From Chrysomallon squamiferum (Eukaryota > Animalia > Mollusca), in contig CM022676.1 of assembly GCA_012295275.1 (NCBI GenBank), forward strand, positions 15,438,001 through 15,502,000: DNA of 64,000 nt, in the 5' to 3' direction. Of this stretch, positions 2,493-61,710 are shown piece after piece. The position numbers and the translations under genes are program-made. The notes beneath the pieces were generated by a model, which saw nothing but the letters and a program-made list of their open reading frames with translations, searched no databases and had not been told where the DNA came from. How positions within the stretch are numbered: the stretch's first letter is position 1; every line of letters begins with the position of its first letter.

Positions 2493-3096
2493 GTAAGTGT
2501 AATATTTTCTGAATGTTTATTCGAAGAGGCCTTACTTTATCAAAAGCGCTTTAAATTCTGCAGGTTCAATATGTATTAAGTCTTCTGGCAAGGCAATCAG
2601 GAGAGAATGAAGGAAGTAATGAGTGGACAAATAAAGAAAGGGCATGAAACAGAAGGCCAAAACATATTATGAAATAGTAAAGATATAAAAGGTTGTCATT
2701 TATATATTGGGCTAATAGCGTCAAAGGTTATTTTGTATTACATGATTAACTAATAGAAATAAGTTTAATTGTCTCTTAAGATATGCTAGTATGAAGTTCA
2801 GCATAGTTCTATGATAAATACAGATTGTTTGTAAATTAATATTTCGCAGTATGACAACTTGTTTTATCAGCACTATAGATTAATATTTGTCTGTGTAGCT
2901 GTAAATAGCAAACTGGTGATGCTACTCTGTCACTTTTTATATTTTGTTCTGTTTAGTTCTGTATGCATCATATTATTTATGGTTTATCAATGTGGTTTTG
3001 TTTGACTGTTTCTTCTACGTTTAACTACTGATGTATGAATTATTATTTCTGAAACGTAACAAAACTATTTAAACATGTCTTATTATTTCTGTGTAG

Positions 3097-3167
3097 GTAA
3101 CAACCTAGAACAAAGTGGGTCAACTGAACATCATCCGTATGAAGTATTTGGTGTTGATGATAATTGA
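3097..3167 (+). CDS. Terminal coding exon (copy 2), (G)NNLEQSGSTEHHPYEVFGVDDN*
   Basis: Same acceptor and frame as 322-392; phase-compatible with 2451-2492. Confidence 0.6.
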
Positions 3168-4832
3168 CCGAACGATATTCGTTACTAATGCATTTACTTA
3201 AAACTGCTACAAATAACTCTATTTAGTGTATGCACACGTGCTTATGTAAGAATTAAGATAACAAAAATTCAAAAAAGTAATTTCAGAAATTTCAGTATGC
3301 AAGATAACTAATTATATATCTATATTCCTGCTATATATATATTTGTTTTCATACAAGAACTTTACTAGATATTTTTCTTTTAAATGTGGTTTCATACTTG
3401 TGTTATGTTTATATGAGAACAATTTAATACATAGTGTATGTTTGTGTACTTTTTATGTTCCATAATGTTGTGTTTTTCTTTGGATGTTTAGAATTAACTG
3501 ATACTGTACAGCTTAATTTTATTTGTGGGAAATCTGTAAAACTGTAGTTAGACTGTCTAGTCAAATTCTGATGAATCTATGTCTAGTAAAATTGTGATTA
3601 CACTATGTTTTGTAAAATACTAATTATCTGTATGCATTTACTTCTGATTAAACTATGTTTAGTGAAAACAACGCATGCCTTTGATATTTTATGCAAACAC
3701 ATGCATTAATTGTCTGCCTTGTTATCGTCTTATGTGAATCCACACATTTTTAAAAAGAAATTAATTTTATTATTATGCACAGAACATAAAGCACACCAAC
3801 ATACTTATTGACAGTTTTATTATTTCTGGTCAAAAGAAAATACAATAAAAGTAAATAAATAAATAAATAAATACTACTACTAATAATACAACAACAAGAA
3901 CTACTACTATTACTACTACTACTAATAATAATAACAAATAAAAATAAAAATAAGAAGTCAGTCATGAGCATTATAACTGATTTCATTCAATTACTTACTA
4001 CAACAGTTGTGCAATCACATTTGTCACATAAACTTGCCTGTAGCAGTAATATGTCCTTACCATTTCAACAGCAATCAAATTTACACCACTTTCTGCGCTT
4101 CTTACAACAGTTAAGTTTATCGCAAGACTGTCGTCTTTAAGTCGGTGCTATTTAACTATTAAGTTATCTATCAGACGCCAAAGACATCAACTAAACACTG
4201 AATTATATCCGAAATTACTACAACCTGTAAACATGACTGTAACTGGTTGTACCTGTGTTAAATCTCCAGTCCATACAAAGATATTCCATTAATTTACTGT
4301 AATCAGTTATACAGTACACATACATTCATATGTCATATGTGTCTACATAATAATATTTGACTTCATGTTTTAAAAGACAAATTAAGTGTGGTTTATATAT
4401 AATACTATATAGATTTTAAGATAGCAAAGAGTGAAATTAAGAAGAAATAATCTCACTTTATTAGTAATAATAAGAAAGTAAAATAAACAAAACACTAACT
4501 ATATGTAATTATTACATTGAGTAATGATGTAACGCTGTGTAAGTTTTCGTCAGTGCGTGTTGAAATATGTATCTGAATACATCTTGAATTAAAATATAAC
4601 CATAACAAATAAACAAGTAAAAAATAACTATAACACAAGAATGCACATGAAAAAATTCAAATGACAGCAAGTGAACATATTACATATTTAAAATGCACTT
4701 AAAGTCGGAGTTACATTATTGACAAGTATTTTATGTTTCTTTCAGCTTATATTTATTCATTTATTTATATATGATGATGATCATCATCATAATAATCATA
4801 TTTCTACTTATTTATTATTGTTGTTTTTGTTA

Positions 4833-4894
<62 letters not shown>

Positions 4895-7317
4895 TCAAAT
4901 AACTTTCTCGGTTCCCTGTGAAAATACGTATCAATTTTAGACGATAATTTACATAAACGATATTATCTGGTATACCGTTTTTCGCATTTGACAATACAGG
5001 ATATTCACTTTCAAACAGACAATGATATTCATCTCCAAATTTGTCAACATTAAGAATATGACATTTTCTCTTTTATCTTACAATATTAAATCAGTTTTAA
5101 CAGCAGGTTTAACATGAGACTTCTAATTTTACATAAGACATGAACATTCGCTTGAACAGCGCTATTCTCTGGAGGGATTATTTTTGAATGACTTCACTTT
5201 TTAACGATGCATCTTAAAGCTTATTATTGACATGAGATATATAGAACACAGAACGAAAACTAACGAATAATTACAACAGACTTGATAATCGAGGGTGGTG
5301 TTCCAGATTATTTTACTATTTTAAAAACGTGTGCTTAGTGGTCTAAAGTGAGCGCTTAAAAACTCATCAGTATAGCGATGGTCACTCCATGATATGAGAA
5401 CCCTTTTGACAGAGCGCTTCAAGAATTTCCTAATTTTAATACATGTTTAACATTTTGTATAATTAGTACCCTTGTGAGGAAATATTGTTTTGTCTTTATA
5501 AATTAGGTTCCACGAAAAGGTTATTGTTTTTTATTGAAAAAAAGGTATATCGTCCTAGTTCAGCATAAATCCTTTTAACACTTACTAAATTCTTACACAC
5601 TTTCATATGGAGTTTTCTATTAAATGTAAAAACAATTCTAATTTCAATACATTATTTATTTATTTATTTACTTTTTTATATAATTATTACCCTTTGGAGA
5701 CCTTTCAGTTTATGTTTTTCCCCATTTGTAGATACTGATAATTTAGCATTTTGGATACCGTTTTAAGTAACCATTCAACGCTATGACAGTCGGGATATGT
5801 CCATAAATGGTTTACCGTACAATCATCTAAAATGTACTTTTCCTTCACAAATGCGTCAAAAGGAGAATCGATAACATGCGTTAAAAATATAGTTGTGAGG
5901 AAATTTTGTTTTCACTTTGCAAATTCGGTTCTCCCAAAGTGTTATGATTCTTACGTTTTATAGAAATTCAAAAAGGAATACTTTCTTATTTAACCATAGA
6001 TCATAAAACCAGGTTTACATTCCAAACACATTCGTTTTTTCTGACACCGGTTTGACAGTTAAAGCTGTCAGATAAAAAAACGTTTAGGCACTTAGCCTAT
6101 CGACGAATACCGTTAAACATTAGGCCTAACATTTCCAGTAAATAGCCCTAATCACTGGAGTTTGGTTGCTGTTGTTTGACATTCTGCCTGATAGGAGTTC
6201 TGGCAAACAGTCAAATGGGTTTAATTCTTTGCTACCATCTGTTTAGTGATTCAATTAAATTATTTATTATCATAAGTTTTATAGCTTATTGATATACTAC
6301 GTCAATAATTTAAAAAGAAAGTATTTAACTGAATTGGAAGACTCTGCTTTGCTTGGTCATATATTCTTTGCTTAATTATGCACAGATACGTTTTTATATT
6401 TTCATTAGTATGGTTCTGCTCCATCCACATGTAACCATATCGGAACTCATATAAAGTTTCCCAAATAAAAGTCATCCAATTATTCTTCTATAATATCCAA
6501 TACAATGCTTTGTTCTAATTCATTTCAACCAATATTTAAACATTCTATAAGTAGGCTCATAAACTAATAGGAATCTAAGTGATTCAAAATATACCACCAT
6601 ATCTGTGGTTGACATTTTAACAATTAAAACATTTTTAAGTCTGACCAGCTTTTGATGTAACTCATGTTTAAACTGCATCAATAAATAGAACACTACTTGT
6701 GATATGTTTCGAAATAAATGTGTTAATGCAGCTGTAGTCCATTCTTTTTCATTCAATCATTTTGCGTAATGAATAGACGTTCATTTCAGTCGTTTGGTCT
6801 AATTCCTGGACATTTTAGACATTAGCACAAACGACTGACGATCTTGGACGTTAGACTAAATGCATAAACATTTCAGGCATTAGGACAAATTACTAGTTTA
6901 TAATATTGACTATAATATATACAACATTCAAACACTCTAAAATGGTAGAAATGATTATTAAAATTAAAATTGAATATCAGTTGATGTAAGTAAGATCAAA
7001 TTAAATGCTATATATTAATTGTATTTAATTTATGTGTTTGTTTGCTTACTATGCAGATTAGTTAAAGATAATTTTAAACTGCTGTTTTTCCCGAATGCTT
7101 CAGTATACTGATCTTAGTTTTGTGGAGAAACTCTCCAGCATGTCACATTAAATCTGTCAAGTGTCTGTTTGTTTTCTACGTAGGCCCGATAAAAAATTGT
7201 GTGTTATACACGAGACATACTAAAGTATACTCGTGGGTTATTTGCAAAGATGAAACCTTTTACTGTAGGTTAGAGAAAGGCAGACTATTGTAAGTGACTG
7301 TCACACATTGATAAACT

Positions 7318-12882: not shown

Positions 12883-31984
<19,102 letters not shown>

Positions 31985-32131
31985 GTATGCTATTTTTGTT
32001 TTTATTTTATGTTTTTTTCATTTCTTAAACTTCTTGGATTATTTTAAAGTTTACTTTAACGAAAAAAAAAAAAAACACTTTTCAGTGAATAATGCCCGTT
32101 AACTTCTTACTCTTTTTCTTCCACATTGAGA

Positions 32132-32279
<148 letters not shown>

Positions 32280-32812
32280 GTGTTTGTGTGTATGTGGGTA
32301 TCTCTTTGTGAGTATAAAGGTAACTAAAAGACGGCTAGAATCCTCTCCCTTGAATATTTTATAATACAGATACTGGAAAAAGTATTTCTCTATAATGTAT
32401 TGCAATTTATAAATATCCATGTGAAACGGCTGAAGTTTATTTATCAGTCACTGTTGAATTCTCATAGCAGACATATCGTACGGTAATCTGAATTAAATGG
32501 ATATACAACAACAACATTAATTTCGATTATCACGATGCTGAGAAAAATAAATATTTCAAAACGGCAAAATTATTTAGTCCGGTTTCTCTCATGGTGAAAT
32601 TCGAACATGGCGGCCATGTATACATATGAAAGTAAGTGAACTTTAGGCGTACACTGTGTATGTGTTTCCGCATATATACATACATGCATACAGACACAAA
32701 AAAAATCACACAAAAATATAGATACATGTAAGAATGACGAAAGAGAAAGAATGGCGAGCTCCGTGGGAATCTATGATTACCCTGGGTTACAGAGCAACTT
32801 TTATTTAATATT

Positions 32813-33084: not shown

Positions 33085-33284
33085 NNNNNNNNNNNNNNNN
33101 NNNNNNNNNNNNNNNNNNNNNNNNNNNNNNNNNNNNNNNNNNNNNNNNNNNNNNNNNNNNNNNNNNNNNNNNNNNNNNNNNNNNNNNNNNNNNNNNNNNN
33201 NNNNNNNNNNNNNNNNNNNNNNNNNNNNNNNNNNNNNNNNNNNNNNNNNNNNNNNNNNNNNNNNNNNNNNNNNNNNNNNNNNNN
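33085..33284. other. Assembly gap (200 N)
   Basis: Run of n characters. Confidence 1.
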
Positions 33285-35160
33285 ACAATATACAGTGAAC
33301 CTTTAAACAAAAACATATTATTAGGAGTACATACAGGATACCTTTAAACAACAAAGTGTTATTCGAAAATATACGTGATAACTTTAAACAAAACACGAGT
33401 TGTTAGAAAATATACAGGTTAATGTTAAACAAAAACGTATTTTTAGAAAATATACAGGATAACTTTAAACAGATACGTATTATTAAAAATATACAGTAAA
33501 ATTTAAACAAAAATCTATTATTAGAAAATAAACAGGGTAATTTTAAACAAAACACGAGTTGTTAGAAAATATACAGGGTAACATTAAATGATTTACTAGA
33601 AAACATATAGGAAAACTTTTAAAAAAACCAACAAAGTATTACTAGAGAATACAAAGGAGAACTTGAAACAAAAATGTATTATTAGAACATACAGTGAAAC
33701 TTTTAACAAATATGCATTATCAGAAAATATACAGGACAACTTTAAACGAAACTCCTATTGTTAGAAAATATAGAGGAAAAAATTAACAAATCACATATAA
33801 TTGGAAAATGTAGATGATAACTTTAAACAAAAATGTTTTATTAGAAAATATGCAAGATAATTTGGAACAAAAATATACTGGTAGAAAATGAAAAAGATAA
33901 CGTTAAACAAACATTATACTATTATAAAATTATCAGTGAAACGTTAAGCAATAACACATTATCAGAAAGTATACAGGGTAAATTTAAACAAAAACGTATT
34001 ATTAGAAAATATACAGGGAAAATTTAAACGAAAGAGTATTATTAGAATATATAGTGAAACTTTAAACAAAAATATATTATGAGGAATATATATATAGGAT
34101 AACTTTGAACAGTAACGTCTTATTAGAAAATATACGTGACGATTTTAAACAAAACACGAGATGTTAGAAAATACACAGGTTACTGTTAAACAAAAACGAT
34201 GTATTAGAAATGTACAGCGATACTTTAAACAAAAACGTATTATTACAGTTATACAGTGACAGTTTATACAAAAAGGTATTATTAGGAAATATGCAGGTTA
34301 AAGTTAAAGACAAACGTTTTATTAGAAATATGTAGTTAAACTTTAAACAAATATGCATTTTTAGAAAATATACAGAAAAACTTTAGACAAAAGCGTATAG
34401 TTAGAAAATATTCAGTTCGAAGTATAGCGAAAACGTATTGTTAGAACATATACACGATATATTTAGACCAAAAGGTATTATTAGGAAATATGCCGGTTAA
34501 CTTTAAGCAAAAACGTATTATTAGAAAATATACAGGATAACTTTAAACAAGAACAAATTATTAGAAATATACAGTAAAACTTGAAATGTGTTGTCAGGAA
34601 TATACATGGTAATTTAAACAAAAACGCGTTATTAGAAATATACAGTGAAGTTTCAAACAGAAACATATTAATAGGAATATATATATATATAGGGGAACTT
34701 TAAACAAAAACGTTTTCTTAGAATTGTACTGGGTAAATGTAAACAAAAATGTATTATTAGAAATATACAGTGACATTTTAAACAAAAACGTATTATTAGA
34801 AAATATAGATGATCGATTAAAACAAAATTCATACAGATAGGAAATACAGAGGATAACTGTAAACAAAAAATGTATTAGAAATGTAAAGTGAAACTTAAAG
34901 ATAAATGTCTTATCAGTAACTTACAGGGTAATTTAAATAAAAACTTACTAATAGAAATGTACAGTGTAGAATTATACTCTAAACAAAAATATGTTACTAG
35001 AATTATAAGGTGTAACTTTATTATATATGTATAAAAACAGAAAGGTGCTGTTAGAAATATGCATTGCAATTTTAAACAAACTTATAGATGAAGAAACACA
35101 GTGCATCTTGAAGCAAAAGGTTATTATTAAATATACAGTGCATCTTCAAACGGAAACCGT
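33285..35160. repeat. Diverged AT-rich minisatellite, ~38-39-bp unit (AAAATATACAGGATAACTTTAAACAAAAACGTATTATTAG), roughly 45-50 copies
   Basis: Recurrent tttaaacaaaa...ttattagaaaatatacag motif at ~39-nt spacing. Confidence 0.9.
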
Positions 35161-35505: not shown

Positions 35506-37163
35506 CTATTTTTCTCTGCTCATTTGGTGACCACTTCTTCTGTCACTGTTAAATGCTTGTTTTGTTTGTCCCGTCACAGTGTAGTCTGTATCAGGCAAAT
35601 CCAGTCTGGACATACTGTTTGATTTTTCCTGGATATAATCCATGTATCTGTTGGTTATTCGATAATCCACGTCTGATGTAATGTTCGGATGATCCGTCAA
35701 TTTCTCTCCTCGATAATAGGTGCAAGTTTTTGGTCTGATGCATTCCTTGGATTTAGTTCCTATGGGATCATTCCTGAATCTGTTTTCTCCTTGATAATCT
35801 CTGTGAAATTTTCCTCTAGGATAATCCGTCGTTTTAATTTCTCTGGTGTCATTTTTCTCTTTATTTGTATTCTGAAAATAGTCGTCTCTCTTTGTTTTAG
35901 GATTGTATCTGTCATTGTCTGCTCCTGGATAATCGCTCACGGATTTTCTTCTGAGATGATCTTTCTCCGTATTTGCTTTCGTAAAGTCTCTTTCTATGTA
36001 TGCTTTGGAATTATTTGGGGGATTATTGCTCTTTTGATTTATTCTCCAAATATACTTGTTTTGTTCCGTTCTGGTATAATGGGTGTCTGAACGTGTTCCG
36101 TGTGATTTTTCCATCTGAATATCTGAAAGTGTGATTTCAGCCTCCACTATGGATGACTCTCTATCCGACGGCTTACTGTTAGCAAATCCATCTGACGCCC
36201 TTCTGTTAGTATCTTTGCCTGACGTCCTTGTGTTACTGTCTTTGTCTACCAGCCTACTGCTATTATCTTTCTCTGACGTCCATCTGTTACTATTTCTGTC
36301 TGACTCTCTTCTGTTGGTATCTCCCGCTGACGACCTTCTATTAGTATCTTTCTGTGATGCCGTTCTGAATAACACTTCACTGTGAGGATGTCGATCTGAC
36401 GCCCTTCTGCAACTGTCTTTGTATGACGCACTACTGTTACTATCTTTGTCTGCCGCTCTGCTATTTGCATCTCTCTTTATCGTCCTTCTGTTACTATCTG
36501 TGTCAGTCGCCCTACTATTTGCATCTCTCTTTGTCGTCCTTCTGTTACTATCTTTGTCTGTCGCCCTGCTATTAGCATATCTCTCTGTCGTCCTTCTGTT
36601 ACTATCTTTGTGTGTCGCCCTACTATTAGCATATCTCTCTGTCGTCCTTCTGTTACTATCTGTGTTTATCGCCCTACTATTTGCATCTCTCTGTGTCGTC
36701 CTTCTGTTACTATCTGTGTTTGTCGCCCTACTATTAGTATATCTCTCTGACGTCCATCTGTTGGTGTCTCTGGCTGACTTTCTTCTGTTGGTACATTTGT
36801 CTGATGTCTTTCTGTTAGTATGGTTGTCTGCCACCTCGCTTTCAAGATGTCGATCTGAAACCCTTCTGCTACCACGTCTGTCTGACGTCCATCTGAAAGT
36901 ATCTCTGTCTGATCCTCTACTGCTAGTATCTCTCTCTGACGCCCTACTGTTAGTATATCTCTCTGACGCCCTACTGTTAGTATATCTCTCTGACGCCCTA
37001 CTGTTAGTATATTTGTCTGACGCCCTACTGTTAGCATATCTGTTGGACGCCCTACTGTTAGTATATCTGTTGGACGTCATTTCGGAGGACGTCACATCTT
37101 TTCTTGTACTGGAACAGATTTCGCACTCTGCATTCTTCCCGAAATAGTCAAAATAGATATGAC
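35506..37163 (-). CDS. ZNFX1: ZNFX1-like exon 2: second half of a degenerate RZ finger plus a ~530-aa R/S/D/T/N-rich tail
   Basis: Acceptor tgtgtttcag|GTCATATC at 37164/37163, phase 1; reads GHIYFDYFGKNAECEICSSTRKDVTSSE and continues in frame into the 35506..37095 ORF. Confidence 0.8.
36150..37075 (-). repeat. Coding tandem repeat, 27-bp (9-aa) unit such as ERYTNSRAS, with a 54-bp dimeric stretch
   Basis: + strand unit ccctactgttagtatatctctctgacg; the reading frame is preserved throughout. Confidence 0.9.
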
Positions 37164-37611
37164 CTGAAACACAAATATGATTCTAGAATTATAATTTCTG
37201 TCACGGTGTTTTTTAAATACTGTTTATTTTTTGGTTTTTTGTTTATTATCCTATGGAATAGCTGGATATTGGGACTGAACCATCATTGGACGTAAAAATT
37301 ACTAGATGTAGGTCGAAGACAAGAGAAAGAAAAGATGATGAAAAGAAAAGAAAATAAAGAAGTGAAGAAAAATATGAAGAAATAAATACCAAATTATAAC
37401 TGAATAATAAGTAAATAAATAAATAAAATTAGATCTGGAAATATGCGAATCAGCCAAAAATGAGATATATAAAGATAATAATTTAATAACAAATACAAAA
37501 TATTTCGATATTACTAAAATATCATTTGACGTTGTTTTAGATATATAAATTTACAGACAGACATTTATAAGTTCTTAATTAAAAACAGATACAGAAAAAC
37601 AGTGTTCTCAC

Positions 37612-40600
37612 CTGCTTGACATTTCAGCCAGCCTTCCCTACTGAAATTCATGGTAATTTTATCTGTGGAGACGTAACGAAGAGATATTTCACTTGAAGGA
37701 AGGAAAGGAGCCCGAGATTTAACTATTTCTTGACGTTCTGGAGTAAAGGCATTTCCATCCATAGCGAACTTTTTAATTACATCAGTAACATCATTTGTAT
37801 TGTCTGTGATTTTCTGTGACTGTTTGGCGTTGTCTGAAGCTGATTTTAGATCGATTAGCAGTTTCAGTCTTTTCGTTTCATTGTCTGCATCGAATTGCTC
37901 CTGCTTCGTAAATATTCTTCTGTCCTTCGATATCCATGTCTCGAAACGATCCACGTCTTTACAATGTTCACTGATCCCCATCTTACGAAAATATGTTTTA
38001 AACGTATGACAGTTATTTTTTAGAGCCATAAGCATCTGACGCAAACTCATTGACCTTTGTGTTTCGTAATAGTCTTTTCTTTCCTGCTTTATTAATTCAA
38101 GCTTGATATAATCTACGTCCAGTAAAGTCTGTTTGATGACGTCTCTATATCTTCCACTATGTCTAATGAGCACGTTACAGCGTGGACAACGTTTCAACTG
38201 GATTGTGTTGGATTTCGACTCCAACAGCTCATCGAGAGCTTGCACCTCAAAGATATGTCCGCAGTCTTCGAGCTGCACAAACAGAGAGTAATTTCGTTTA
38301 TCAGCCTGCAAAGCTTTCACTTCATCTCTGTTGCAGACTCGACAAAGATCAGGACACTTTTCTCCTACCAGACCAATGCATCTGTGCTGACACGACAGCT
38401 TCTTCATGCACCGCTTGTTGGAGCGTGGCGCATTCCACACATCACAACATCGTCTACGAATGCTCCTTCCCTTGCAGGTGAACTCGCAGTTTTCACGACA
38501 CATTGAACAGCGGTCACCACATGACCTATCACAGGACAGATGGTCACAGCTGTTCTCACACGGCAAAGGACAAAGTGGACACGTAGAACAGTCACTGACA
38601 CATTCGTGTCCACACAGCAGACGTTTCCTGCATTTCTCCTTGCAGGCAACGTGAAGTCGACCTTGAACACATTCGTGACAAGAACCACGACAAATATGAC
38701 CACATTTCAAAACGGTGCTGCATTTTATATTACAAATGGCGTTGTCTCGTTCATGACAAACCATTTCAATTTCATGACCACATTTCAAAACGGTTCTGCA
38801 TATTACGTTACAAACTGCCTTGTCTCGTTCATGGCAAAGCACTTCAATTTCATGACCACATTCCAAAACGGTGCTGCATTTCACATTGCAAATGGCTTTG
38901 TCTCGTTCATGGCAAAGCACTTCAATTTCATGACCACATTCCAAAACGGTGCTGCATTTCGCATTACAAACGGCGGTGTCTTGTTCGTGACAAACCACCT
39001 CAATTTCGTGCCCGCAGTACAAACCAACATGCTTTACTAGCTGCATGCACTTGATTGTACTTGCATCGGCAGAGCAAGGAATTTCTTGTTTGTGTCCACA
39101 CGCTGGTATCACCTCGGTAACGGGAGCGACACAGTCTCTGCAATATTCAGAACAAAGAAGCGGACATTTATGTTGAAATTTACACAAAATTCTTTCACAC
39201 GGTTTCTGACATCTGTATTTGAGATGAAGTGGATCAGCTGGATGGCACGCCAGTTCACACACGTGACCACAGTTCAGTCTGTACGTGCATTGCTTTCTGC
39301 AGCCTCCTTCAGGAACCAAACTGAAATCTTCTGCTTTCGCAGCTTTTACTCCTTCATCTTTGACGTGATTTCGACAATAAAGACCAAGAGCATTTCCGAG
39401 CTGGTCGGTCGATTTCAAATCGTCAATAATGGTTTTCCATAATTTACTCTGTTGACCGAGCAGGGTAAAGTTTCCTATGACGTAAAGTCCCATTCTAGCT
39501 CTGGAAAGAGCTACACACACCCGGTTGTCTGTTTTCAGAAAGCCAATACTCCTCTCCAGATTGCTGCGTACCAAAGACAGCAGTATGATATCATTCTCCT
39601 CTCCTTGGTAATTGTCAACATCTGTGACAATGACATTTGTAAATATTTCGTCTTTCATATTCTTCTTCAGATAGACGACCTGAGCTGAATACGTAGTTAA
39701 GACTGTGATTTCCTTTGGATGATAACCTTGTTTCAAGAGGTAGCGACAGAGCGCTATAATATATTTCGCCTCAAACACGTTCAAATGACTCACGAGTTCG
39801 TCATTTGTTTCTTCATTTTCACAATGGTTTATGAAAAATACATTGGTACACACACCCAGGATATCCGGGTATTTCTCAACAGAAGGGTGATCTCTGAGAT
39901 GAGGATAGATGTGTTTCATGATTCTGGAAATACAGGGCCGCATTCTGTGCTGTTGCTCAAGACACACACACTCCAAGCCGTTGTTAACCATTCGTTCAAA
40001 TAAGGATAACTCCAGGTTATATCGTTTTGCGAGTGCGTAAACAGTGGGACTTGGTCGCAGCTGCTGATGGTCTCCGATCAGAATCAGATGCTGACATCCT
40101 GAATTCAGTGATGCAATCACGTGGCCTTCCAGAACTTCTGCAGCTTCCTCAATGATGATGATTCTTGGTTTAATTTCTTCTAAAACCTTCTGATAACGAG
40201 CAGCAGCACTCGTTGTCATTCCTACCACAGAACATCTTCTCATCACTCTCTGGTCCGCGTCCTGCTTCGCCGTTCTGTATGTTTCTCCAGCAGCACTGAC
40301 TCTTTCCTGCAGCTCTTCTATCTCTGACTCAGTTTGCTCTTTCAGATGTTGCACCCACAACCTGTAAAGACGCCACCGATTTCTGGGTGAGAGTGACCAG
40401 ATATCTTCTACTGCGTCAGCTTCTCTTTCTGACATCCTAGACTGCGACATCATGTTTGTGATCAAAACAGAACTTTCACTTTGTGAAATCTCTTTAAAAA
40501 CCGTGTCGAAGTCAATGAGCAAAATGCCAGGCCGAGTGGGCAAAGGTTTGTAGTGTTTTCTGTTGTCTGTTTGCTCGTACTGACAATCCTCAAATTTTTC

Positions 40601-42766
40601 TGAACTACCGTGGAATTTATAAACTTTTCTTCGTTTTCTTGGTACAGGAATAAGTATGCCGAGCCATACGGGTAGGAACCAGTCTCTAAAAGGAGTATGT
40701 AAGAGTTGGTCGTAGTGCATCTCTTTAACATGACCTGTCAGATACAGATTTCTCACTATTCCGTTATCTATCAGTTCGTGTTGTTCTTTTTTCTCAAGAA
40801 GACTTTTCTGACACCCAATATAATTTGTTTTCAACACGTCGTAATTTTTTCCGTTAATGGTATACTTTTTTCGCATTTCCTTGATTTCATAAGTTTTAAC
40901 TTTTTCATTCTTACTTCTTTTACCAACACGAACGAGATTTGTTCTTTTAAACTCGAGGATTCCTTCAAGGAATTGGTCCAATGCGTGATTCGTATAACAC
41001 AGAACTAAAATGGGGTTTTCTCTGTCTCCTTCCCAGATATCTCTGTTTCTTAATAAAGTTTCTATTATTTTTAGTCCTATATATGTTTTTCCCGTTCCTG
41101 GAGGGCCCTGGATGAGGACAAATTCTTTGGTCAGGGCTTGTTGAAACGCCTTGAACTGAGCCGCCTCCAGTTTCAGAGTCTCTGGCTGGGTCCACTTGTT
41201 CAGATTCAGAACAGGAACGCCATTGTGGCTCTCATCCTCATCGTCTGCTGCTTCACTAAAACTGTCTGTATCTTTTATTTCTCCCCTGCTTGTCAGTGGT
41301 GTTGTGGACGAAATTTTCTTAATAGTTTTGTTGTTTTCAGCCTCAGATGTCTTAGTCTTGTTCTGGAATTGATAGTGAGCATTTTCTTTGTCTCTCAGAT
41401 AGGCTGGCTGTTTCACTTCAGTTGTACAGTGTACAATGTATTCCTCGAACGGAAGCTTGTTAATATTCTGCAGAGATGACAAGACGTAGCAATATGCTTC
41501 AAAGTAAGCCGGTGTTTCCAACATCACCATCGGCTTCGTCAAATCGATTCCTGTGATGCCTACAACATGCTCTTCAAAAATCTCAACTGTGACTACACCG
41601 TTGTCATCCTTTACAGGCCCCGATTCAACAGTTGCAATGGTAAACGTTTTGAAACAGTTGCTCGACAGACAAACCAGAGAACCATATTTCAGTCGTTTCG
41701 TGTACTCCCACTGGATGTCTTTCAGTTTGCTTGTGTCAAATGTCACAGTATGCACGAACTTTGCATTTTTGAAATCTGAATTTAGTATTCTGACACCTTT
41801 ATACGTGCGAAGAGAAACACCTTTTCCTGGTTGCTGGTGAAACGATACATATTCATGAATAGCTTCGTACAACGGCTGAATGAAATCTTCCCTCAACAGT
41901 CTGAACTGTACATCGAGGTAGTCGTCGAGATCGTAGTACGCACCTCTTTTCTTCATCCTGCGAAGGAAGGGCGCGTTTGTGCGATAAACGTCATCGTACG
42001 TTGGCATCACTGAAATTCTTCTGAAGTCATTCGGAAGTGACGGTTTCTTTGCTGCTGTTACTCTGTCACTTTGAGCCTTTTTCATCATTGACGTTTTCAG
42101 TTCTAAGAGTTGTTTTGTTTTCATGTCTATCGTCTCAGGGACAGACAACCCACGTTTTCTTAAACTGGCCACGACGTCGTCTACAAGGGAGTTAACTCCT
42201 GCAACCTGTACGATGGTATGAGGCAGCCGCAGAGATAACTGTACAAGCAGGTCAAGAACATCGGCTATAAATGGAAGTGACATTTTCTCAGCAGCTACTG
42301 AACAATCAGCAGATATCTCCCTCAACAGTGGCGGAACCGTGCGTTCTAAAAACAGCGATCTCTCGACATCAAGTAGAAGGTTAAATACTTGTTCTGTGTG
42401 TACTTCGCAACTGCACGACTTTGCTAGTAATTTTGTTATCAAACACACATCACTTGACGAAAGTCTTCTTTGAGTCAGAAGTCTGAAAAACTGTTTTTGT
42501 CTATCCTTGAGTTTATACAACAGTTTTTCATTGTCTTTCTCCTTCAATTCGTTCAGTTCAAGCAGCAGTGCTTCATCATTCTTCTCCTTCATTTTGTTAT
42601 GATCAAACAGCTGTGTTTCATCATCATCCTTCAATTCATTCAGTTCAAACTGCAGTTTTTCATCATCATCCTTCTGTTTATTCCGTTCAAACTGCAATGT
42701 TCCATCGTCCTTCTCCTGTATGTCCTCAAGGTAAGAATCATTTACTCCTCCGTATTTTGAACACAT
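37612..42766 (-). CDS. ZNFX1: NFX1-type zinc finger-containing protein 1-like (UPF1-like SF1 RNA helicase), giant coding exon 1
   Basis: QFRLLREDF, GPPGTGKT, CYTNHALDQF, IEEAAE, ILIGDHQQL, QHRM, VDNYQGEE and VALSRA motifs, an NFX1-type CGH zinc-finger array and RING-like LEDCGH...CPRC; donor CAG|gtgaga at 37612/37611. Spliced product ~2270 aa. Confidence 0.93.
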
Positions 42767-43465
42767 TATGCTTTTGTTATTTCACGTGTCTTCTTATCTT
42801 TTCATCTTTCAATTTATCTTCTGACTACTTAATTTATTAATGTCATTTGTTTCACTTTACCGTTATGTTTAATGTTTCACTTTGTCTTTTGGTGTACAAG
42901 ATGGATTTTTCCCAGTTTCAATTCATGTTTTGACGTTTCAGTTTAGGTTTACTCGTTTCAATATAACCTTATTTTGTGAAGTAAATAAAACTCCTTAATA
43001 GCACACTGAAACAAAGAAACCAGAAACCAGTTACTTTTTGTTTATTCTTCACTATTGTACTGACGGATGTATGTATGTTTATGTATGTATATATGCAAGT
43101 GGAAACATACATACATACAAACACATATACATGCATGCATACACATACACATACATACATATATATACACACGCACGCAAAAACAAACACATACACAAAT
43201 ATATTTACAGAAAAGTACGCACTTACGAACTTTTAAAGGCAGTTTTAGAATTATAAAGTTCCGTTAATTGGCGGTGAAGATATAGCGAGTTGAGTGTGAC
43301 AAAGTAAACCAGCTTTGTATTTTTTCCTCTCCGGTGGATTCTGTTTTTCCTTGGATTCCGTGGTTTTCACCGATGTCCTCAGACTTTTGGTATGTTTTGG
43401 CTTCGGTATATATATATATACACACATACAACATACAGAGACACGCAAACACACATGTATGTATG

Positions 43466-45387: not shown

Positions 45388-45973
45388 ATCTTTGGTCTGC
45401 TAGGAGGCTGGTAGAGAACGAAACTACTAGAAGCAAGAGGCTCTTTTATTTGAGGAAATATGTTTGGAAAGCCCTTCTTCGCACTTTAAAATTCATAAAG
45501 AAAACATGGAGTGGAAGGAGCATGACAATACAGTACTCTAAATAAGGTGATACACGTCTGCTTCTTTCAAGGTCAAGGTGAACCGGTTTTTTAAGTTTAG
45601 AGTGTTTATATTTCAACTTTTCGTTGCGGTTTAAAAAGTGATATTAACACACACAAATATTCAAATACACGAAGAAACAGGCATAGAGACATGCACATAA
45701 ATTTGGATTTTGTCTTAATATTTTTGTTTTGTTTTTCGTTTTATTTTATATTTTAAAGGTGGTTACTCTGCAGCTTCAAGTGACTACAGTAAACTAAAAG
45801 TGGAGGGTAGCAGGCCAATCAGCGGTAAGAACGGACTCCTAGGATACACGGGGAAAATTGGTGACTGGAAAATTACGGTCCGGAACAAGAGCTCATGGCA
45901 AAATCCGAAGCCAACCCTGTCATTTACGTCAAAGGACGGTAGAACAGTGATAAAAATCAGATACAAAAATTAA
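45388..45973 (+). pseudogene. Spliced small gene or null allele: pro-region ending RSKR plus a ~105-aa cationic domain resembling bacterial polymorphic-toxin C-terminal domains; one in-frame TAA
   Basis: Exon 45388-45546 (acceptor ctttcag, donor G|gtgata, phase 1-1) and exon 45759-45973 (acceptor ttttaaag, stop TAA, AATAAA at 46017) join as ...TIQYSK*G|GYSAASSDYSKLK...VRNKSS...PTLSF...IKIRYKN. First exon not identified. Confidence 0.65.
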
Positions 45974-46623: not shown

Positions 46624-48920
46624 TTGTCAGCCACATCTTCAAAGTAAGTGAATGCAATTTTCTTTTTACATATGGTTATTCTTCTGTCTGTCGTGTATAC
46701 ATTTTTTGCTAATAACAGGTAACTTGTCGCGATCCTCGCCTGAACTTACTAATTAATATGAATCTTAATAGTAAGTTCTTAACTATCTGTTAAACTAAGT
46801 AAGCCAAGAACATAAACATGAAAGCAGCGAAGCACCTTCGGCCACATTTAACAGTTATTCACATTATAACTTTTCGTGTAACCGTTTAAAATTAATTAGC
46901 GAATATTTAATTTTTAAATTTCTATTTTTTTATATATGCATGTATGAAATTACAGTGTGTGTGGGTTTTTTTTGTTTTTGTTTTGTTTGGTTGTTTTTTT
47001 TTGTTTGTTTTTATTTAAAATTAAACAATTATAAATATTTTATATTTGATTTCTAAAATTATTCATGCATCAGTGTTTACTTGTAAACTGGAAATTAACT
47101 TAGTTTGTTACATCTATCTACTTATCTGTGTTTTCACATGCATACATGCATATAAAGGATACCAGTAATACATTTCTTTATAAAAAAATAAAAAACACCT
47201 AAATAAGCTGTAGACTGTGTCAGTACTTATTTATAGTAATATCAATAATTATAGTCTTCTTTAATTTCACTGTTGAATTATCCATCTGGCTATATATATG
47301 TGTGTAATATATATATATATATATATATATATATGACTGTAAATATATATGCATATACATATCTACCGGTCTACATGTATATGTACACTATAGATTATCT
47401 GTGTGTTTGTATCTGTGAGTCTATATATAGCTCTATGAGTAATTTATATACATCACAGTGTCCATACCTGTTAAGGAGCTTAAAAAATAAACTGACATCA
47501 ATCTCTATGAAACAATAATTGCATCTATCCACTAGAGAAATAAACACAACACATGTTAATGTATACATTATACCCTATCAGCATAAGAACAGACAATGGC
47601 TTACCATACTCTTACATAAAGAAAATGTCATTTGCAAACACTGCTTTCCTGCCTGACTATCAAATCTGTCTTTTTTCTGCTAACTATGAAATACCAGTCC
47701 TATTGAAGCAAATCCATCGAGTTGAAAAATTAGTTGTAAAAGTAAAATGTGGTGTGACAGAAAACTAATTAATAAAATCAATTGTTAACATAATCAACAT
47801 CATACATTAGTTAAAAAATCAACATCATACATTATGAGTTACAAACATCCTATAATTCTTTTCATTTTATTTACATATATGTATTTGTGTATGTGTTTGT
47901 ATATAGTTGTACATATTTATGAATTTAGTTAATAAACTGAATAAAGTTTTAGTAACCTGTATATTGCTGCGGTTGTATTAATTTACAATACAATGACAAA
48001 ATACTTAATCTATGTAAAGTAGATGATACCAGGCTTTGATGAAAACATGTAATTTACATATCAATTAAATAACAACTCAGTGGGCTGTCTTTGCAAAGGA
48101 AACAAGTCTGAAAACAAGAAAACTCTGAATAAATGCGGGTTATATTTGATAATTTATATGTAACAACCTGACCTCAGATCATGTTCCTTCAAAGTTGTCA
48201 CTATTTGATTTTTACCTGTCAGCTGTAATTTATTATATTCTTTTTTGGATAACAAAATCACTACATGAATTAATAATAGGAAGATGGTAAAACAGTAGAT
48301 GGATCTCACATTCTGTTTGCTGTGAGTTCAAATCTCCAGAACTAACTAGTTTATAATAAAATTTGAAAACTAAATTATGAAACTGCAATTTTATATTTTA
48401 GAAACAATCTTTATTTTTCTGTTTAATTTTTTTGTGTGATTGTTTTAGTTCATGCAGTCAAAGGTTCTAATGTTTTTGGTTGTCCAGATCATCTGATGTG
48501 TGTATGCATAGTAAATGAAAAGAAATATTTAAAACAAGGAAAAACAGAAAAATAAATATTTTTGTAATAATTATTTTAGTAGCAATATAGGGTTGTGCTG
48601 TATTTAAGAAATAGCATTTACAGTGTACAGGTTTCAAAACTTTGATATATCAGGACAGTTTATTTACTAGTTTGAGATATCAATATGTCTCCCTCTGTGA
48701 CTACCTATTTATTTATTGATCAGTTTATCGATCTGTCTCTACATCTACATATCTGTTTCTGCAGATAATGACAAGAATTTACTACTGAGTGTGTGGGTAA
48801 ATGTAGGTGCAGATAGAATATTAAACATGTAAACACATGTTGTTTGTTTTTAAATAAACATTTTTTAACATTTTTGTCCACAGATTCTTCACTTCTACAG
48901 ATGAACTCATTCAGTGAAGT

Positions 48921-50269
48921 ATGCAACTGCAGACATGTCAGTCTTGTTATCATGGCAACAGGGTTTTCTGCCTCGTTTTCATTTTTGTCTTTCTCACTGT
49001 TGTGATATGCAGCCAGTCACTGACGTTGAGTGGAGAGAAGAAAATTGATCATTTTGACCACAGTGGAAACCACGAAGACACACTGTGCTGGACGGTGAAA
49101 ATCCACAACAGAGTTCAACATTCCATACCACTTCAAGGGAGACAACTTGTCCTTTCTGCAGCAGACATCAGGCTTGTCTCTGTGGGACAGATATCAAATT
49201 TCCTAAACCATTTCACTTTCTGTTTCTGGCCAGACACTTTAGAACTGAGTGACACAAGTAAACAGAACTATGAAGATTTACACAAAGTGCATCAGTTTCT
49301 CTTGAAGAAAAAGCGTCACAGATTCAACACTGTGAGGAAAACAGTAGAGAGTTGGTTGCAGGGAGACAACTCTGTTGAGTGGTTTAGTCCCAACGTAGTG
49401 AGAGTCAGACAGAAAAGATCTCTTCATTTTGAAGATCCGTTCTTCACACGACAGTGGCACTTGGTAAGTAAACAATTTGCATAATGTATCTCCAGTTGTA
49501 GTGAAAGTAGAACTTAGCTCCATTGTGTAGCCTCCACTCAAACAGTGACACAGCATCAGATATGTCTGTTTATGTGGACTCACTAACCAGTTTCTTCTTA
49601 ATACACTTTGATTAACATTTTAGTGTTACATACTTTCATGAATATGAAATAGCAGACTGTAACAATGAGAGATAATTTATTGTGTTAATTTAAATTAGAT
49701 GTGTTTTATCTAAAATTACTAAAATAATTTTTATTTTGTTTTATTTTATTAATATATGTATTTATTTGTTTATTTATTATGTTTATTATATTTATTTATT
49801 TATTTGTTTATTTTTTATTTTATTTTATTTATTATATTTATTTATTCATGTATTTATTTATTTATTTATTAAACAGAGGAACAACTTGTTGTCTGGAATG
49901 GATATCAATGTCACTGGAGTCTGGGAACGAAACATAACAGGAATTGGTGTCACTGTTGCTGTTGTTGACGATGGTAAATACATATTTGATATAACTAAAT
50001 ACAGTTCTTATAGTTAATAATAGTAAATACTTTTGTTTTAGTTGATAAATAAATATTGCTGCTGATTTCTAAAGTTAACAGATTTCAAAACTCAAATTTA
50101 GTTATCTGTATTTTGGTTTCAGTTAGATTTGTTCAAGTTCTTTGAGTACAAGTTTGAAATTCTGTATACATAAAACAGTATTGAAATGTTCTTTCTCACT
50201 CTCTGTTCTGTTTATATATCTGTAATCTCTCTATTTTTTTTTTCTGTCTGTGTAACCTATGTCATTCTG

Positions 50270-59293: not shown

Positions 59294-61710
59294 GGTAGTG
59301 GTGTAGATATAATAGTAGTTGTAGTAGAAGGCTTAATCATATAGTAGTAGTAAAAGCATTAATAGTAGTAGCTGTAGTAGCTACAGCAGCAATGACAGTA
59401 GCAGTAGTTTTTTCATTATAAGAATTTACTACTGATAGATAAATAAATATGTATCTATGATTAATAAATAATGTTAGAAAGATGGACGGTGTTAATCGAT
59501 TTGATTTAATAAAATATTAATCAATCCAGAATTTATGATGTTTTTTTGTTTTTTTTACATCAGACACAAAGCATTCAGCATTTGGTGTTTTGAAATCGTG
59601 GAAGCTGACGTTGTTTGGAACACCAATGACTCCTCAACAGTTCATGAAAAGACGACGGTAAACACTGAAAATGTTTTTTTTTACTATTACATTCACTCAA
59701 GCATGAATACAATATTTTGTGTGTTCTATTTTTCATTTTTTTGGGGGGGCTATATTCAGCACAAAATGTTTACATCTGATTTACAGGTAGAGCTATGAAC
59801 ACAGATTGCAAAGTTTATATTACCATTATAAACTGTATCTGTTAATACCAGACTCTTATACTTACAGGGATGTTTCATTTTTATACAGAAAACTGCAAGA
59901 ACAGTAAAAGTAAATAAATGTGTTAAGTTTTAATTTATATATAAATACAGCATTTTAATCAACATGATACCACTAGTCAGTACATGGAGAAATTTCATTT
60001 ATCTCTTCATCATCTTCATAATAAATCAGAAAAGACGTATATAAATATACACATAAAAATAAACATAAAATGATATGAAAAATATGTAAAACAAATGTAT
60101 AAAGAGTATACAGAGGAAAAAAAAGGTCAGTTTGTCTTTATTAATTTAAAAAATTCTGATAATGTTATAGTTTTCACATCTTCTTACCTGCCTCTCCACC
60201 TCTCCTGTTTATATTTGTTTATCTTTCTGTTTATGTATCTGTTTATCTAGCTAATGTATTTCTGTTTGTCTATTTGTCACTATACTCCTTTGATGGAAAT
60301 TGTTAGCATCGTTGTTTTGACAGAAATGTGTATATTAGTTTGATTAAAAGAAGCTATGAATGTAGTTCTTAATACACCGTTTATTGTTTTAGTTTGATAC
60401 ATAAATCTGTTAATGTTTTGTTTTATTTGTTTTTATGGGGTGGGTTTAATTGTTTATTGTTTTATTTTGATAAAATAGTCTATGAATATTGTTTTGAGAA
60501 TTGTTTATTGTTTTAGTTTGACAAAACCTATGAATATTGTTTTTAAGAATTGTTTATTGTTTTAGTTTCATAGAAGAAACTATGAATAATATTTTTGAGA
60601 AGTGTTTATTGTTTTAGTTTCATAGATGAAACTATGAATATTGTTTTTAAGAACTGTTTATTGTTTCAGTTTGATAGAAGAAGCTATGAGTGGAATTTAT
60701 CTTAATGACAGCTACGAAATACCATGTCCACCACCCCCTGTTATAGCCACACCTTACACACCGATGTCAGAAAGAACATTAAAGGTATTTTTAATTTTTA
60801 TTGTTTATATATTTTCTGTAGTCATCAATATTGTCTTATCATCTATATGATCATTCTGTTAGAATTATCTTTATTATTACTCTTGTCATTTATTTATTGC
60901 TTTTTTATTGTGTTTCTTGTGCTATTTTAAATATTTATTTTGTTAGTTTGTTTAAATTTTATTATATAATTTGTTTATTTATTTGATTTGTCTATTTTTA
61001 TAATTTTGTCATACTTACATATTTTATTTACTTATTGTTTTATTTTTACTTCTTTATATGATGTTATATATTGAATTTTAAGTATTTATTTATTTATTTG
61101 CTTATTTTATTTGTTTATTTATTTAGTTGCTTAGTTATTTGACTTGTTTGTTTGCTTCATTTCTTGTTTGTTTATTTATATACAGATTCTGGCACTGTCG
61201 TGTATATTCTTTGCTGTCATGTCTCTCTATGAAACTCTGGAATATGCTTTCTGCTACAATGATGAGAAAAAAGAACAACGACGCAAGGTCAAACTTGCTG
61301 CAAGAGCGCAACGACTCAGCAGTGGCGCCAGTGCTGCTGCCACTGCCGATGATGCAACTGAATCAACTGGGTTACTTCAGCAAGAAGAAATTCCCATGGA
61401 AACCATATCGGTGATGTTGCCAGTAGCAACCCCTGAGGAGGCGTGCAGCTCTGATAGGGAGGAGGTTAATGAGAGTTTGCTAAGCAACAGAGGAGATAAC
61501 GAAGCTCCATCAAAGACAGCCATGTCTGTTAGTGAGTCTAGTGAGCAACATTTTGTGAGAAACTCACAGTATTGTGTTCAGTCTTCCTTAACAAAAACAA
61601 ATCATTTTACAAGTGGCCTTAATAATGGATTACCAGTGCCTCCTGTTGCAGTAGATGACGATGTTGATCTGACTGGCTCTGATCAAGACAGTGTCCTACT
61701 TGCCAGGTGA
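48921..61710 (+). CDS. PCSK7: Proprotein convertase subtilisin/kexin type 7 (PC7)-like, 16 coding exons
   Basis: Exons 48921-49463, 49877-49973, 50571-50672, 51056-51151, 51353-51443, 51756-51810, 52010-52148, 52427-52527, 53020-53187, 55897-56004, 56765-56870, 57185-57341, 58332-58426, 59564-59657, 60670-60784, 61186-61710, all phase-compatible GT-AG. Hydrophobic N-terminus, RQKR pro-site, triad VVDDG / NHHGTRC / HTGTSAAAP, oxyanion ASGNGG, PC7-typical [14 protein letters not shown] and HSHKHGFG, P domain LEHVQV, TM segment and acidic dileucine tail. Confidence 0.93.
53800..55070 (+). mobile_element. Decayed LINE RT relic in convertase intron 9
   Basis: LENGVKQGC at 53801-53827, then a Y-x-DD-like segment, then [14 protein letters not shown] and DSYKYLGLW; right boundary approximate. 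Confidence 0.65.
53861..54247. repeat. 43-bp minisatellite x9
   Basis: Unit ggagttaatggtagatgtgtatcattgttgaagtacacatgat; 387 bp = 9 x 43. Confidence 0.95.
56011..56314. repeat. 76-bp tandem repeat x4 directly after the exon 10 donor
   Basis: Units start at 56011, 56087, 56163 and 56239 and are near-identical. Confidence 0.95.
57336..58052. repeat. ~38-bp minisatellite (~19 units) containing the exon 12 splice donor
   Basis: Unit atgacaagtaagtttatttatcatagaatgtgaaatta. Confidence 0.93.
60335..60690. repeat. ~50-bp degenerate tandem repeat containing the exon 15 splice acceptor
   Basis: Unit tgtttattgttttagtttcatagaagaaactatgaatattgtttttaagaa; the last unit reads into the true exon (tttcag|tttgatagaagaagctatga). 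Confidence 0.85.

What the first reader, a model, noticed from the sequence alone, without database searches (positions are those of the whole stretch)
37100..37650. ZNFX1 paralogue with an RZ finger that keeps the zinc ligands but lacks the catalytic cysteine
Seen: splicing 37612 to 37163 yields WLKCQAGHIYFDYFGKNAECEICSST. Established: the RNF213/ZNFX1 RZ finger reads W/Y-x-C-x-x-G-H-x-Y-x-I-x-[ED]-C-G...C-x2-C...IGG, and the Cys of the [ED]CG motif is the proposed ubiquitin-accepting residue. Here the C-x3-H and C-x2-C ligands persist, [ED]CG is replaced by YFG, the loop is ~4 residues shorter and IGG is missing, while helicase motifs and the RING-like LEDCGH..CPRC module are intact. Inference: an RNA sensor uncoupled from RZ-dependent ubiquitination, i.e. 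a pseudo-E3, decoy or regulator of active paralogues.
Basis: partly seen in the sequence, partly recalled or inferred. Interest (0 to 1): 0.72.

Follow-up and report, generated by a model that had tools for sequence, protein, structure and literature searches.

The report
Ligase-stripped ZNFX1 RNA helicase subfamily
This gene is a copy of the antiviral RNA helicase ZNFX1 that keeps its RNA-handling core but has lost the key residues of both ubiquitin-ligase modules, so it likely binds RNA without tagging anything with ubiquitin, and similarly stripped copies likely arose several times in invertebrates.

Summary
Observation confirmed. The 448-nt GT-AG intron (37611-37164) gives the stated peptide, and an RNA contig of a close relative joins exactly there. 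The RZ remnant keeps four zinc ligands but lacks the catalytic Cys, the general-base His and IGG. Its E2-binding Phe (human F1575) aligns with Ala here. Human ZNFX1 lacking only the RZ Cys stays active in vitro; the double mutant is dead. So both modules are likely disabled. Also missed: a 535-residue basic repeat tail and no recognisable auto-inhibitory plug, both shared with a Gigantopelta relative. All helicase catalytic and RNA-contact residues checked are kept. The gene is not unique: it sits in a well-supported 9-row gastropod clade, and 43 of 50 Cys-less RZ remnants among 180 scorable homologues also lack the E2-binding motif (8 independent pairs, p about 0.03-0.06). Best reading: a likely ligase-dead RNA helicase/scaffold. 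A decoy role is untested, and a RING-only ligase is not excluded. My literature searches and this scan's earlier notes showed no description of such paralogues. New variant of a known kind; interest 0.55.

The parts
37612..42766 (-). Large coding exon A of the ZNFX1 paralogue (first Met to first half of the RZ remnant)
   Evidence: Open frame 37565-42781; Pfam ZNFX1, AAA_11, AAA_12; human ZNFX1 9q9z E 1e-229. An upstream non-coding exon was not looked for.
42540..42706 (-). 42-nt (14-aa) tandem repeat, 3.9 copies, at the short N-terminus ahead of the armadillo region
   Evidence: TRF
39377..42049 (-). SF1 helicase (approximate bounds); residues matching human Y450, K625-T626-Y627, E1006-E1007, Y1043, H1073-R1074, F1210, R1216, R1223 are all kept
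   Evidence: Alignments to 9q9z (chain offset 87 checked on K625, E1007, R1223); motif positions; residue roles
40442..40666 (-). Shortened 1C insertion without a recognisable acidic plug helix; a basic run stands in place of the acidic run; similar insert in Gigantopelta P0052
   Evidence: Plug = human 828-836; motif I-II distance 320 vs median 385 in Cys-bearing rows; plug PSSM -27.8, below the 95th percentile of shuffles
38370..39304 (-). NFX1-type Cys/His finger stalk (approximate bounds) with a recent 78-nt repeat in 4 copies at 38696-39007
38174..38356 (-). Z-RING/Miz-like domain: zinc ligands C1502, H1504, C1527, C1530 kept, linchpin position Asn; E2-binding loop 2 residues shorter, with Ala (38303-38305) in the F1575 column, or Leu (38309-38311) by count-back
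   Evidence: AlphaFold2 model of this region pLDDT above 90
37612..37630 (-). First half of the RZ remnant (Trp and first Cys ligand)
37164..37611 (-). 448-nt GT-AG phase-1 intron inside the RZ finger
   Evidence: Sequence; skipped exactly in RNA contig X1/1; 13 of 161 homologues end shortly after the same half-motif, as gene calls cut at a shared intron would (inference)
37114..37163 (-). Second half of the RZ remnant: His and C-x2-C ligands kept; no Cys between them; no IGG; Ser at the general-base His position
35506..37113 (-). 535-residue low-complexity tail (R 15%, S 14%, T 11%, D 10%, N 10%; net charge +38), built on a 27-nt unit in about 24 copies (36424-37068) with 54-nt higher order; ends at TAG
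   Evidence: no Pfam family

Best explanation
The gene encodes a 2270-residue ZNFX1 paralogue whose helicase residues are intact and whose two ubiquitin-ligase modules have each lost their key residues, so it is likely a ligase-dead RNA helicase that would gather RNA through its basic repeat tail rather than through ubiquitin chains. Shown: gene structure; loss of the RZ Cys, His and IGG; no aromatic residue in the E2-binding loop; kept zinc ligands; kept helicase residues; the tail; membership in a gastropod clade that shares the double loss. Inferred from human mutants: little or no E2 binding and no transthiolation, hence no self-ubiquitination and slower turnover. Inferred more weakly: the zinc sites persist as structural or binding elements; without the plug the RNA groove is less inhibited; the Arg-rich tail drives RNA-protein condensation and so replaces ubiquitin-driven clustering. 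I put 'no meaningful E3 activity' at about 0.7 and the full scaffold mechanism at about 0.45.
For: F1575 column is Phe in 12 of 12 active controls and A, Y, M, S, P, T, R, I, S in the 9 clade rows; Ala in the window protein under three MAFFT modes. F1575A abolishes activity and F1575N abolishes E2 binding and viral restriction in human ZNFX1 (10.1101/2025.09.05.674436); the F1575A/C1860A double mutant is the catalytically dead control (10.1101/2025.10.14.682297). Among 180 of 297 proteins scorable for both traits: Cys+/E2 motif+ 124, Cys+/motif- 6, Cys-/motif+ 7, Cys-/motif- 43. On a 114-row helicase tree the Cys state changes 9 times; of 8 independent pairs 6.2 go the same way and 0 the other way, median p 0.031. 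IQ-TREE supports a 9-row clade at 100/99; 8 of its 8 complete members keep four ligands and lack the Cys, and of 117 unscored rows only P0003, cut at the intron, has its best hit there. In the relative's RNA contig the 2 listed changes inside the RZ core are synonymous and the 9 listed in the flanks are non-synonymous. Only this protein and P0052, of 180, have a tail over 100 residues after the RZ.
Against: No activity was measured. By count-back the F1575 position is Leu, and the two closest complete relatives have Tyr (P0052) or Met next to Trp-Phe (P0053), which could still contact an E2. The linchpin is Asn, a tolerated residue, and the Z-RING region models at pLDDT above 90. With a looser E2 motif the table is 126/4/15/35 and the independent-pair test gives 4.8 same, 0 opposite, median p 0.063. 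The 180 rows include near-identical bird and coral sequences, so the Fisher p overstates the case. Plug loss is not tied to Cys loss: 29 of 40 Cys-less rows pass the plug test and 25 of 63 active non-seed rows fail it. The tail's role is inference from composition alone, and P0053 in the same clade has a plug-like motif and a 58-residue tail. Expression is shown by one shallow contig from a relative; 2 of its 13 tabulated changes were not listed.
Confidence: 0.5

Rival explanations
1. RING-only ligase: the RZ step is lost, but the remodelled Z-RING still activates an E2 (perhaps a different E2), as proposed for C. elegans ZNFX1, making K63-type or other chains without transthiolation.
For: Z-RING zinc ligands and spacing are kept in all 9 clade rows; Asn is a tolerated linchpin and the RZ-less human fragment is active; C1860S keeps activity in vitro; Leu sits 16 residues before the Cys; 7 of 50 Cys-less rows keep the strict E2 motif, so RZ-only loss does occur; weak RING hits in the fold search, e.g. 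gp78 RING rmsd 1.7 over 41 columns, E 2.8.
Against: The loop has no aromatic residue, is 2 residues short, and its F1575 column varies freely within the clade while fixed in active rows; co-loss with the RZ Cys recurs.
Confidence: 0.22
2. Decoy or tuning subunit: the dead copy co-assembles with active ZNFX1 paralogues on RNA, dilutes their ligase output or serves as their ubiquitination substrate.
For: Human ZNFX1 dimerises and polymerises, and wild type ubiquitinates the dead double mutant in trans. Haliotis and Gigantopelta entries show Cys-less copies, and Haliotis also has active ones.
Against: No direct evidence. No active paralogue could be shown for this genome. The dead copies arose several times with very different C-termini, which fits specialisation as well as a decoy role.
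Confidence: 0.16
3. Decaying duplicate: the C-terminus is drifting after duplication and the zinc ligands are simply the last residues to go.
For: Run X2 holds many divergent contigs over this stretch (78 laid on 691 nt), one with a broken acceptor at 37164, and a listed change at 37771 would be a stop if alone in its codon. Some Branchiostoma copies look like recent Cys losses.
Against: The 6.8-kb frame is intact; helicase residues are all kept; the clade spans Haliotis, Gigantopelta and this organism with path lengths of 0.6 or more changes per column while four ligands stay fixed; the relative's transcript has only synonymous listed changes in the RZ core.
Confidence: 0.09
4. Wrong exon: the donor at 37611 is spliced to another exon that carries a canonical catalytic RZ half.
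For: A 200-N gap at 33085-33284 is unread; no RNA from the window's own organism was found.
Against: No canonical half in six frames of the window; the relative's RNA uses this junction; annotated relatives P0052 and P0053 have the same kind of remnant; the exon A half already lacks the usual ubiquitin-binding helix pattern.
Confidence: 0.03

Closest known systems
Human ZNFX1 (PDB 9q9z; 10.1101/2025.10.14.682297; 10.1101/2025.09.05.674436; PMC13710534)
   Same: Domain order armadillo, SF1 helicase, NFX1 finger stalk, Z-RING/Miz, helical domain, RZ; all helicase residues checked; zinc ligands of both E3 modules.
   Different: No C1860, H1881, IGG or F1575 equivalents; Asp at the I1835 position by count-back; no recognisable 828-836 plug; 535-residue repeat tail in place of about 45 residues.
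Engineered ZNFX1 F1575A/C1860A 'catalytic dead' mutant (10.1101/2025.10.14.682297)
   Same: The same two functional positions are lost; Ala even aligns with F1575.
   Different: Here the losses are natural, come with remodelled loops, and are shared by a long-lived clade; activity is unmeasured.
C. elegans ZNFX-1
   Same: A natural ZNFX1 without RZ catalysis that works in RNA granules.
   Different: It lacks the RZ entirely and is thought to keep Miz activity; this protein keeps an RZ zinc remnant and has lost the Miz E2-binding loop. I did not examine the worm sequence.
Gigantopelta aegis ZNFX1-like P0052 and P0053; Haliotis P0080, P0082, P0087, P0117 (database entries, named only 'NFX1-type zinc finger-containing protein 1-like')
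   Same: Same clade (100/99); Cys-less RZ remnant and altered E2 loop. P0052 also shares the plug-less insert and a 284-residue R/N/T/D-rich repeat tail; 67-70% identity in the helicase core.
   Different: Tail units differ in sequence; P0053 keeps a plug-like motif and a short tail. None has an RZ Pfam hit (6 of 6 Cys-less proteins tested, versus 78.8 bits for active P0010).
RNF213 RZ finger
   Same: Zinc-ligand pattern of the RZ finger.
   Different: Catalytic pair C4516/H4537 has no counterpart here; RNF213 is an unrelated AAA+ protein.

Membership tests
ZNFX1 | UPF1-like SF1 helicase with the ZNFX1 1B domain | tested here: met
   Pfam PF25396, PF13086, PF13087 above cut-off; 9q9z E 1e-229
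ZNFX1 | Catalytic and RNA-contact residues (K625, E1006/E1007, R1074, R1223, Y450, Y1043, F1210, R1216) | tested here: met
   Read from alignments to 9q9z
ZNFX1 | Armadillo region and NFX1-type finger stalk | tested here: met
   Aligned to 9q9z over both regions
ZNFX1 | Acidic plug helix (human 828-836) in insertion 1C | tested here: not met
   PSSM score -27.8 versus threshold -5.1; the test also misses 25 of 63 active non-seed rows, and a weak remnant cannot be excluded
RZ-finger E3 (RNF213/ZNFX1; Pfam PF20173) | Four zinc ligands C-x3-H and C-x2-C at the RZ position | tested here: met
   14.7 bits on own RZ HMM, 0 of 500 shuffles as high
RZ-finger E3 (RNF213/ZNFX1; Pfam PF20173) | Catalytic Cys seven residues after the His ligand (C1860) | tested here: not met
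   No Cys between His and C-x2-C; none of the listed variants in runs X1 and X2 places one there
RZ-finger E3 (RNF213/ZNFX1; Pfam PF20173) | General-base His (H1881) and IGG | tested here: not met
   Ser at that position; His in 116 of 130 Cys-bearing and 5 of 50 Cys-less rows
RZ-finger E3 (RNF213/ZNFX1; Pfam PF20173) | N-terminal ubiquitin-binding helix (I1835) | tested here: inconclusive
   Asp by count-back (I/V/L in 124 of 130 active rows), but an Ile lies two residues away; in the P0052 model this stretch has pLDDT under 50 and no helix, with no active control model
RZ-finger E3 (RNF213/ZNFX1; Pfam PF20173) | Zinc binding and transthiolation activity | not testable with these tools
   Needs biochemistry
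Z-RING/Miz allosteric E3 of ZNFX1 | Zinc site C1591, H1593, C1619, C1622 | tested here: met
Z-RING/Miz allosteric E3 of ZNFX1 | E2-binding Phe (F1575) in the x-F-G-x-E loop | tested here: not met
   Ala by three alignments, Leu by count-back; motif absent
Z-RING/Miz allosteric E3 of ZNFX1 | Linchpin residue (Q1623; R, K, Q, N tolerated) | tested here: met
   Asn
Z-RING/Miz allosteric E3 of ZNFX1 | RING/U-box cross-brace fold | tested here: inconclusive
   Confident model but only sub-threshold RING hits by Foldseek; the wide search was filled by the helical domain
Decoy pseudo-E3 | Co-assembly with an active paralogue in the same cells | not testable with these tools
   No genome held; interface residues not conserved even among active invertebrate copies

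The most novel reading that the evidence does not exclude
Invertebrates have repeatedly split off a ligase-dead class of ZNFX1 in which the E2 dock and the RZ catalytic pair are lost together while both zinc sites are kept; in this lineage the helicase has also shed its auto-inhibitory plug and gained a long basic repeat tail, making an always-open RNA trap that clusters RNA by condensation instead of by ubiquitin, a second mode of ZNFX1 action.
Probability: 0.3. Interest if true: 0.75.

Novelty: new variant of a known kind. Interest (0 to 1): 0.55.

Why it matters
In human cells ZNFX1 restricts viruses only when RNA binding and ligase activity are both present. Natural paralogues that have kept the helicase but dropped both ligase modules, several times over, imply a maintained ligase-independent or regulatory job for ZNFX1. 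They give ready-made natural counterparts of the laboratory double mutant, and their co-loss pattern supports, from evolution, the model that both activities run through one E2 dock. These copies are missed by the Pfam RZ model, so annotation hides them. Dead enzyme copies are common in expanded immune families (general knowledge), which limits the surprise.

Tried and rejected
Whole-genome paralogue survey: no genome held. Search for shorter or fragment relatives of the C-terminal region: 782 candidates, none at E 0.001. Runs X3 and X4 gave only short unspecific pieces; no run held half of the words, so the species itself is not represented. Fold searches: no hit at E 0.001 for either model; the wide VIA search matched only generic helical bundles. 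Atlas look-up for the tail did not complete. Armadillo dimer residues (human V219, V226 align with Arg here) were dropped as evidence because active invertebrate copies do not conserve them either. A complex prediction with an E2 was not run: no animal E2 sequence came from any call. The first plug HMM run failed and was replaced by a PSSM; one RZ regex slip was fixed. The idea that plug loss goes with Cys loss across the family was rejected. My guess from base composition that the window is cephalopod was not supported: the nearest proteins are gastropod. Literature: seven searches found no paper on Cys-less or E2-dock-less ZNFX1 paralogues; the library lacks most subscription papers, including the 2025 split-site ZNFX1 paper cited in the preprints, and bioRxiv supplements (with their orthologue alignments) could not be seen.
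Full report
1. The observation. The minus strand holds a 1738-codon open frame at 37565-42781 and a second of 558 codons at 35506-37182. A GT donor follows base 37612 and an AG acceptor precedes base 37163; the phase-1 join restores Gly-His and gives the quoted peptide. Of 8 downstream AG sites that give Gly-His in phase, only this one continues as G-H-x-Y, and no canonical second half exists in six frames of the window, apart from an unread 200-N gap. One RNA contig of a related organism (run X1, depth 4.3) skips exactly these 448 bases. Thirteen of 161 homologues end shortly after the same half-motif, which I read as gene calls cut at a shared intron. The spliced frame has 2270 residues, 535 of them after the C-x2-C.

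2. What the protein is. Pfam and PDB place it in ZNFX1. With the 9q9z chain offset of 87, every helicase residue named in the papers that I checked is kept: Y450, K625-T626-Y627, E1006-E1007, Y1043, H1073-R1074, F1210, R1216, R1223. The RZ remnant lies at the expected place after the helical domain (spacing 234 versus a median of 290) and scores 14.7 bits on an HMM of 65 canonical fingers, above all 500 shuffles. It keeps the ligands matching C1849, H1853, C1869, C1872 and lacks C1860, H1881 and IGG.

3. (a) The Z-RING keeps its zinc ligands and an Asn linchpin, but the loop that carries F1575 is two residues short and has no aromatic residue. Three MAFFT modes put Ala in the F1575 column, which is Phe in 12 of 12 active controls; counting back 16 from the Cys gives Leu. 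(b) The 1C insertion is short and has no recognisable acidic plug (human 828-836). (c) The tail is a basic, low-complexity repeat on a 27-nt unit.

4. Why (a) matters. In 10.1101/2025.10.14.682297 (passages and sections 11, 12, 14 read) full-length C1860S keeps activity in vitro, both domains are needed in cells, the double mutant is dead, and wild type ubiquitinates the dead form in trans. In 10.1101/2025.09.05.674436 (passages, section 8 and the first part of section 11 read) F1575A abolishes activity, F1575N abolishes E2 binding and viral restriction, and an RZ-less fragment is active. Loss of the RZ Cys alone would therefore predict a RING-only ligase; loss of both predicts a dead one. From PMC13710534 I read passages and section 8; from PMC11959080 passages. 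Other papers were seen as search listings only.

5. It is a subfamily, not a one-off. The nearest proteins are Gigantopelta P0052 and P0053 and unnamed P0003. IQ-TREE on 36 chosen rows gives a 9-row clade at 100/99 with Haliotis P0080, P0082, P0087, P0117 and P0186, inside a gastropod group that also has active copies. All 8 complete members keep four RZ ligands, lack the Cys and lack the E2 motif; no unscored row with a fully lost RZ belongs there by best hit (1 of 117 hits the clade, P0003, cut at the intron). P0052 shares the plug-less insert and has a 284-residue repeat tail; only it and the window protein, of 180, have tails over 100 residues. The tree joins P0052 with P0053 and P0003 at 86/82, not with the window protein, so shared origin of plug loss and tail is likely but not shown.

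6. The double loss recurs. Of 297 proteins from three searches, a Z-RING was parsed in 270 and both traits in 180; 117 were left unscored, many being cut gene models. Counts with the strict E2 motif: 124 Cys+/motif+, 6 Cys+/motif-, 7 Cys-/motif+, 43 Cys-/motif-; with a loose motif 126, 4, 15, 35. Cys-less remnants carry source names from abalones, Gigantopelta, unionid mussels, corals, amphioxus, a brittle star and a psyllid. On a FastTree of 114 rows (of 138 with a helicase core; near-identical bird and coral-type rows, one mis-cut row and short cores left out) the Cys state changes 9 times; 8 independent pairs give 6.2 concordant and 0 discordant (median p 0.031), or 4.8 and 0 (p 0.063) with the loose motif. 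A smaller first tree gave 6 pairs and p 0.125-0.25. Change counts do not show direction; I read them as losses because the Cys is present in vertebrates, RNF213 and the deepest rows. The remnant definition needs the ligands, so 'ligands kept' is circular family-wide and is evidence only within the clade. The sample is biased to hits of this protein.

7. Is it maintained? The frame is intact over 6.8 kb. In the relative's transcript the 2 listed changes in the RZ core are synonymous and the 9 listed just outside are not; 2 of 13 tabulated changes were hidden, so this is a hint. Run X2 shows many divergent contigs over the region, some broken, none with a listed change that restores the Cys: the relative probably has several copies. 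An AlphaFold2 model of the P0052 remnant gives a two-strand hairpin at pLDDT 76-84 and no confident helix before it; the window's own joined remnant was not folded.

8. Mechanism. Most likely the protein binds and moves on RNA with ATP, cannot dock E2 well and cannot accept ubiquitin, and so escapes the self-ubiquitination and turnover of active ZNFX1; the zinc sites stay as structure; the basic tail would supply multivalent RNA contacts in place of ubiquitin chains. Sequence losses are shown; loss of activity is inferred from human mutants (about 0.7); the tail and plug steps are inferred from composition and structure papers (overall about 0.45-0.5). Rivals: RING-only ligase (0.22), decoy subunit (0.16), decaying duplicate (0.09), other exon (0.03).

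9. Novelty and score. It is a member of ZNFX1 but fails the catalytic tests of both E3 modules. Seven searches found no description of such paralogues; subscription papers and bioRxiv supplements were out of reach. This scan's notes held no such finding. The sequences of relatives are in public databases under generic names. New variant of a known kind; interest 0.55, because the repeated double loss makes a ligase-independent role of ZNFX1 directly testable, while function is unmeasured and dead paralogues are common in immune families.

Noticed in passing
window 15237-15572, 26407-26769, 28271-28591, 31759-32028 (+): Exons of a multi-SRCR (scavenger receptor cysteine-rich) gene on the + strand, converging on the ZNFX1 gene (Pfam PF00530); 14797-15866 and 31289-32291 are 81% identical duplicated SRCR units.
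   Followed up: partly
window 48918-50017 and 61135-61710 (+): Exons of a proprotein convertase-like gene: weak S8 pro-domain hit (E 0.0012), an R-Q-K-R cleavage motif and the start of a subtilisin-type catalytic region; it lies head to head with ZNFX1. The PCSK7-like label is from recall.
   Followed up: no
window 45760-45950 (+): A GC-richer, exon-like open stretch with no Pfam hit; if it belongs to the SRCR gene, ZNFX1 would be nested antisense in an intron.
   Followed up: no
window 33287-34964: AT-rich 40-bp satellite, about 42 copies, just downstream of the ZNFX1 stop, ending at a 200-N gap at 33085-33284.
   Followed up: no
window 1-2348 and 2775-5103: Tandem duplication of about 2.4 kb at 88% identity.
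   Followed up: no
window 38696-39007 and 42540-42706: Recent in-frame tandem repeats inside exon A: four 26-residue finger units and 3.9 copies of a 14-residue unit.
   Followed up: no
proteins P0026-P0036, P0074, P0084, P0097, P0099, P0104, P0113, P0123, P0142, P0266: A separate clade of 2500-3000-residue ZNFX1 proteins (named members are corals) with a lengthened Cys-less RZ loop, no E2 motif, Ser at the linchpin position and a kept, sometimes duplicated plug motif.
   Followed up: partly
proteins P0101, P0102, P0136, P0188, P0203 (named members Branchiostoma): Closely related copies caught at different stages: Cys lost with the E2 motif kept, both lost, or motif lost with the Cys kept; a natural series for the order of loss.
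   Followed up: no
run X2 on window 36950-39000: Many divergent contigs of very different depth, one with a broken splice acceptor, suggest a multi-copy expansion of this gene in the related organism; depth is not a copy number.
   Followed up: partly
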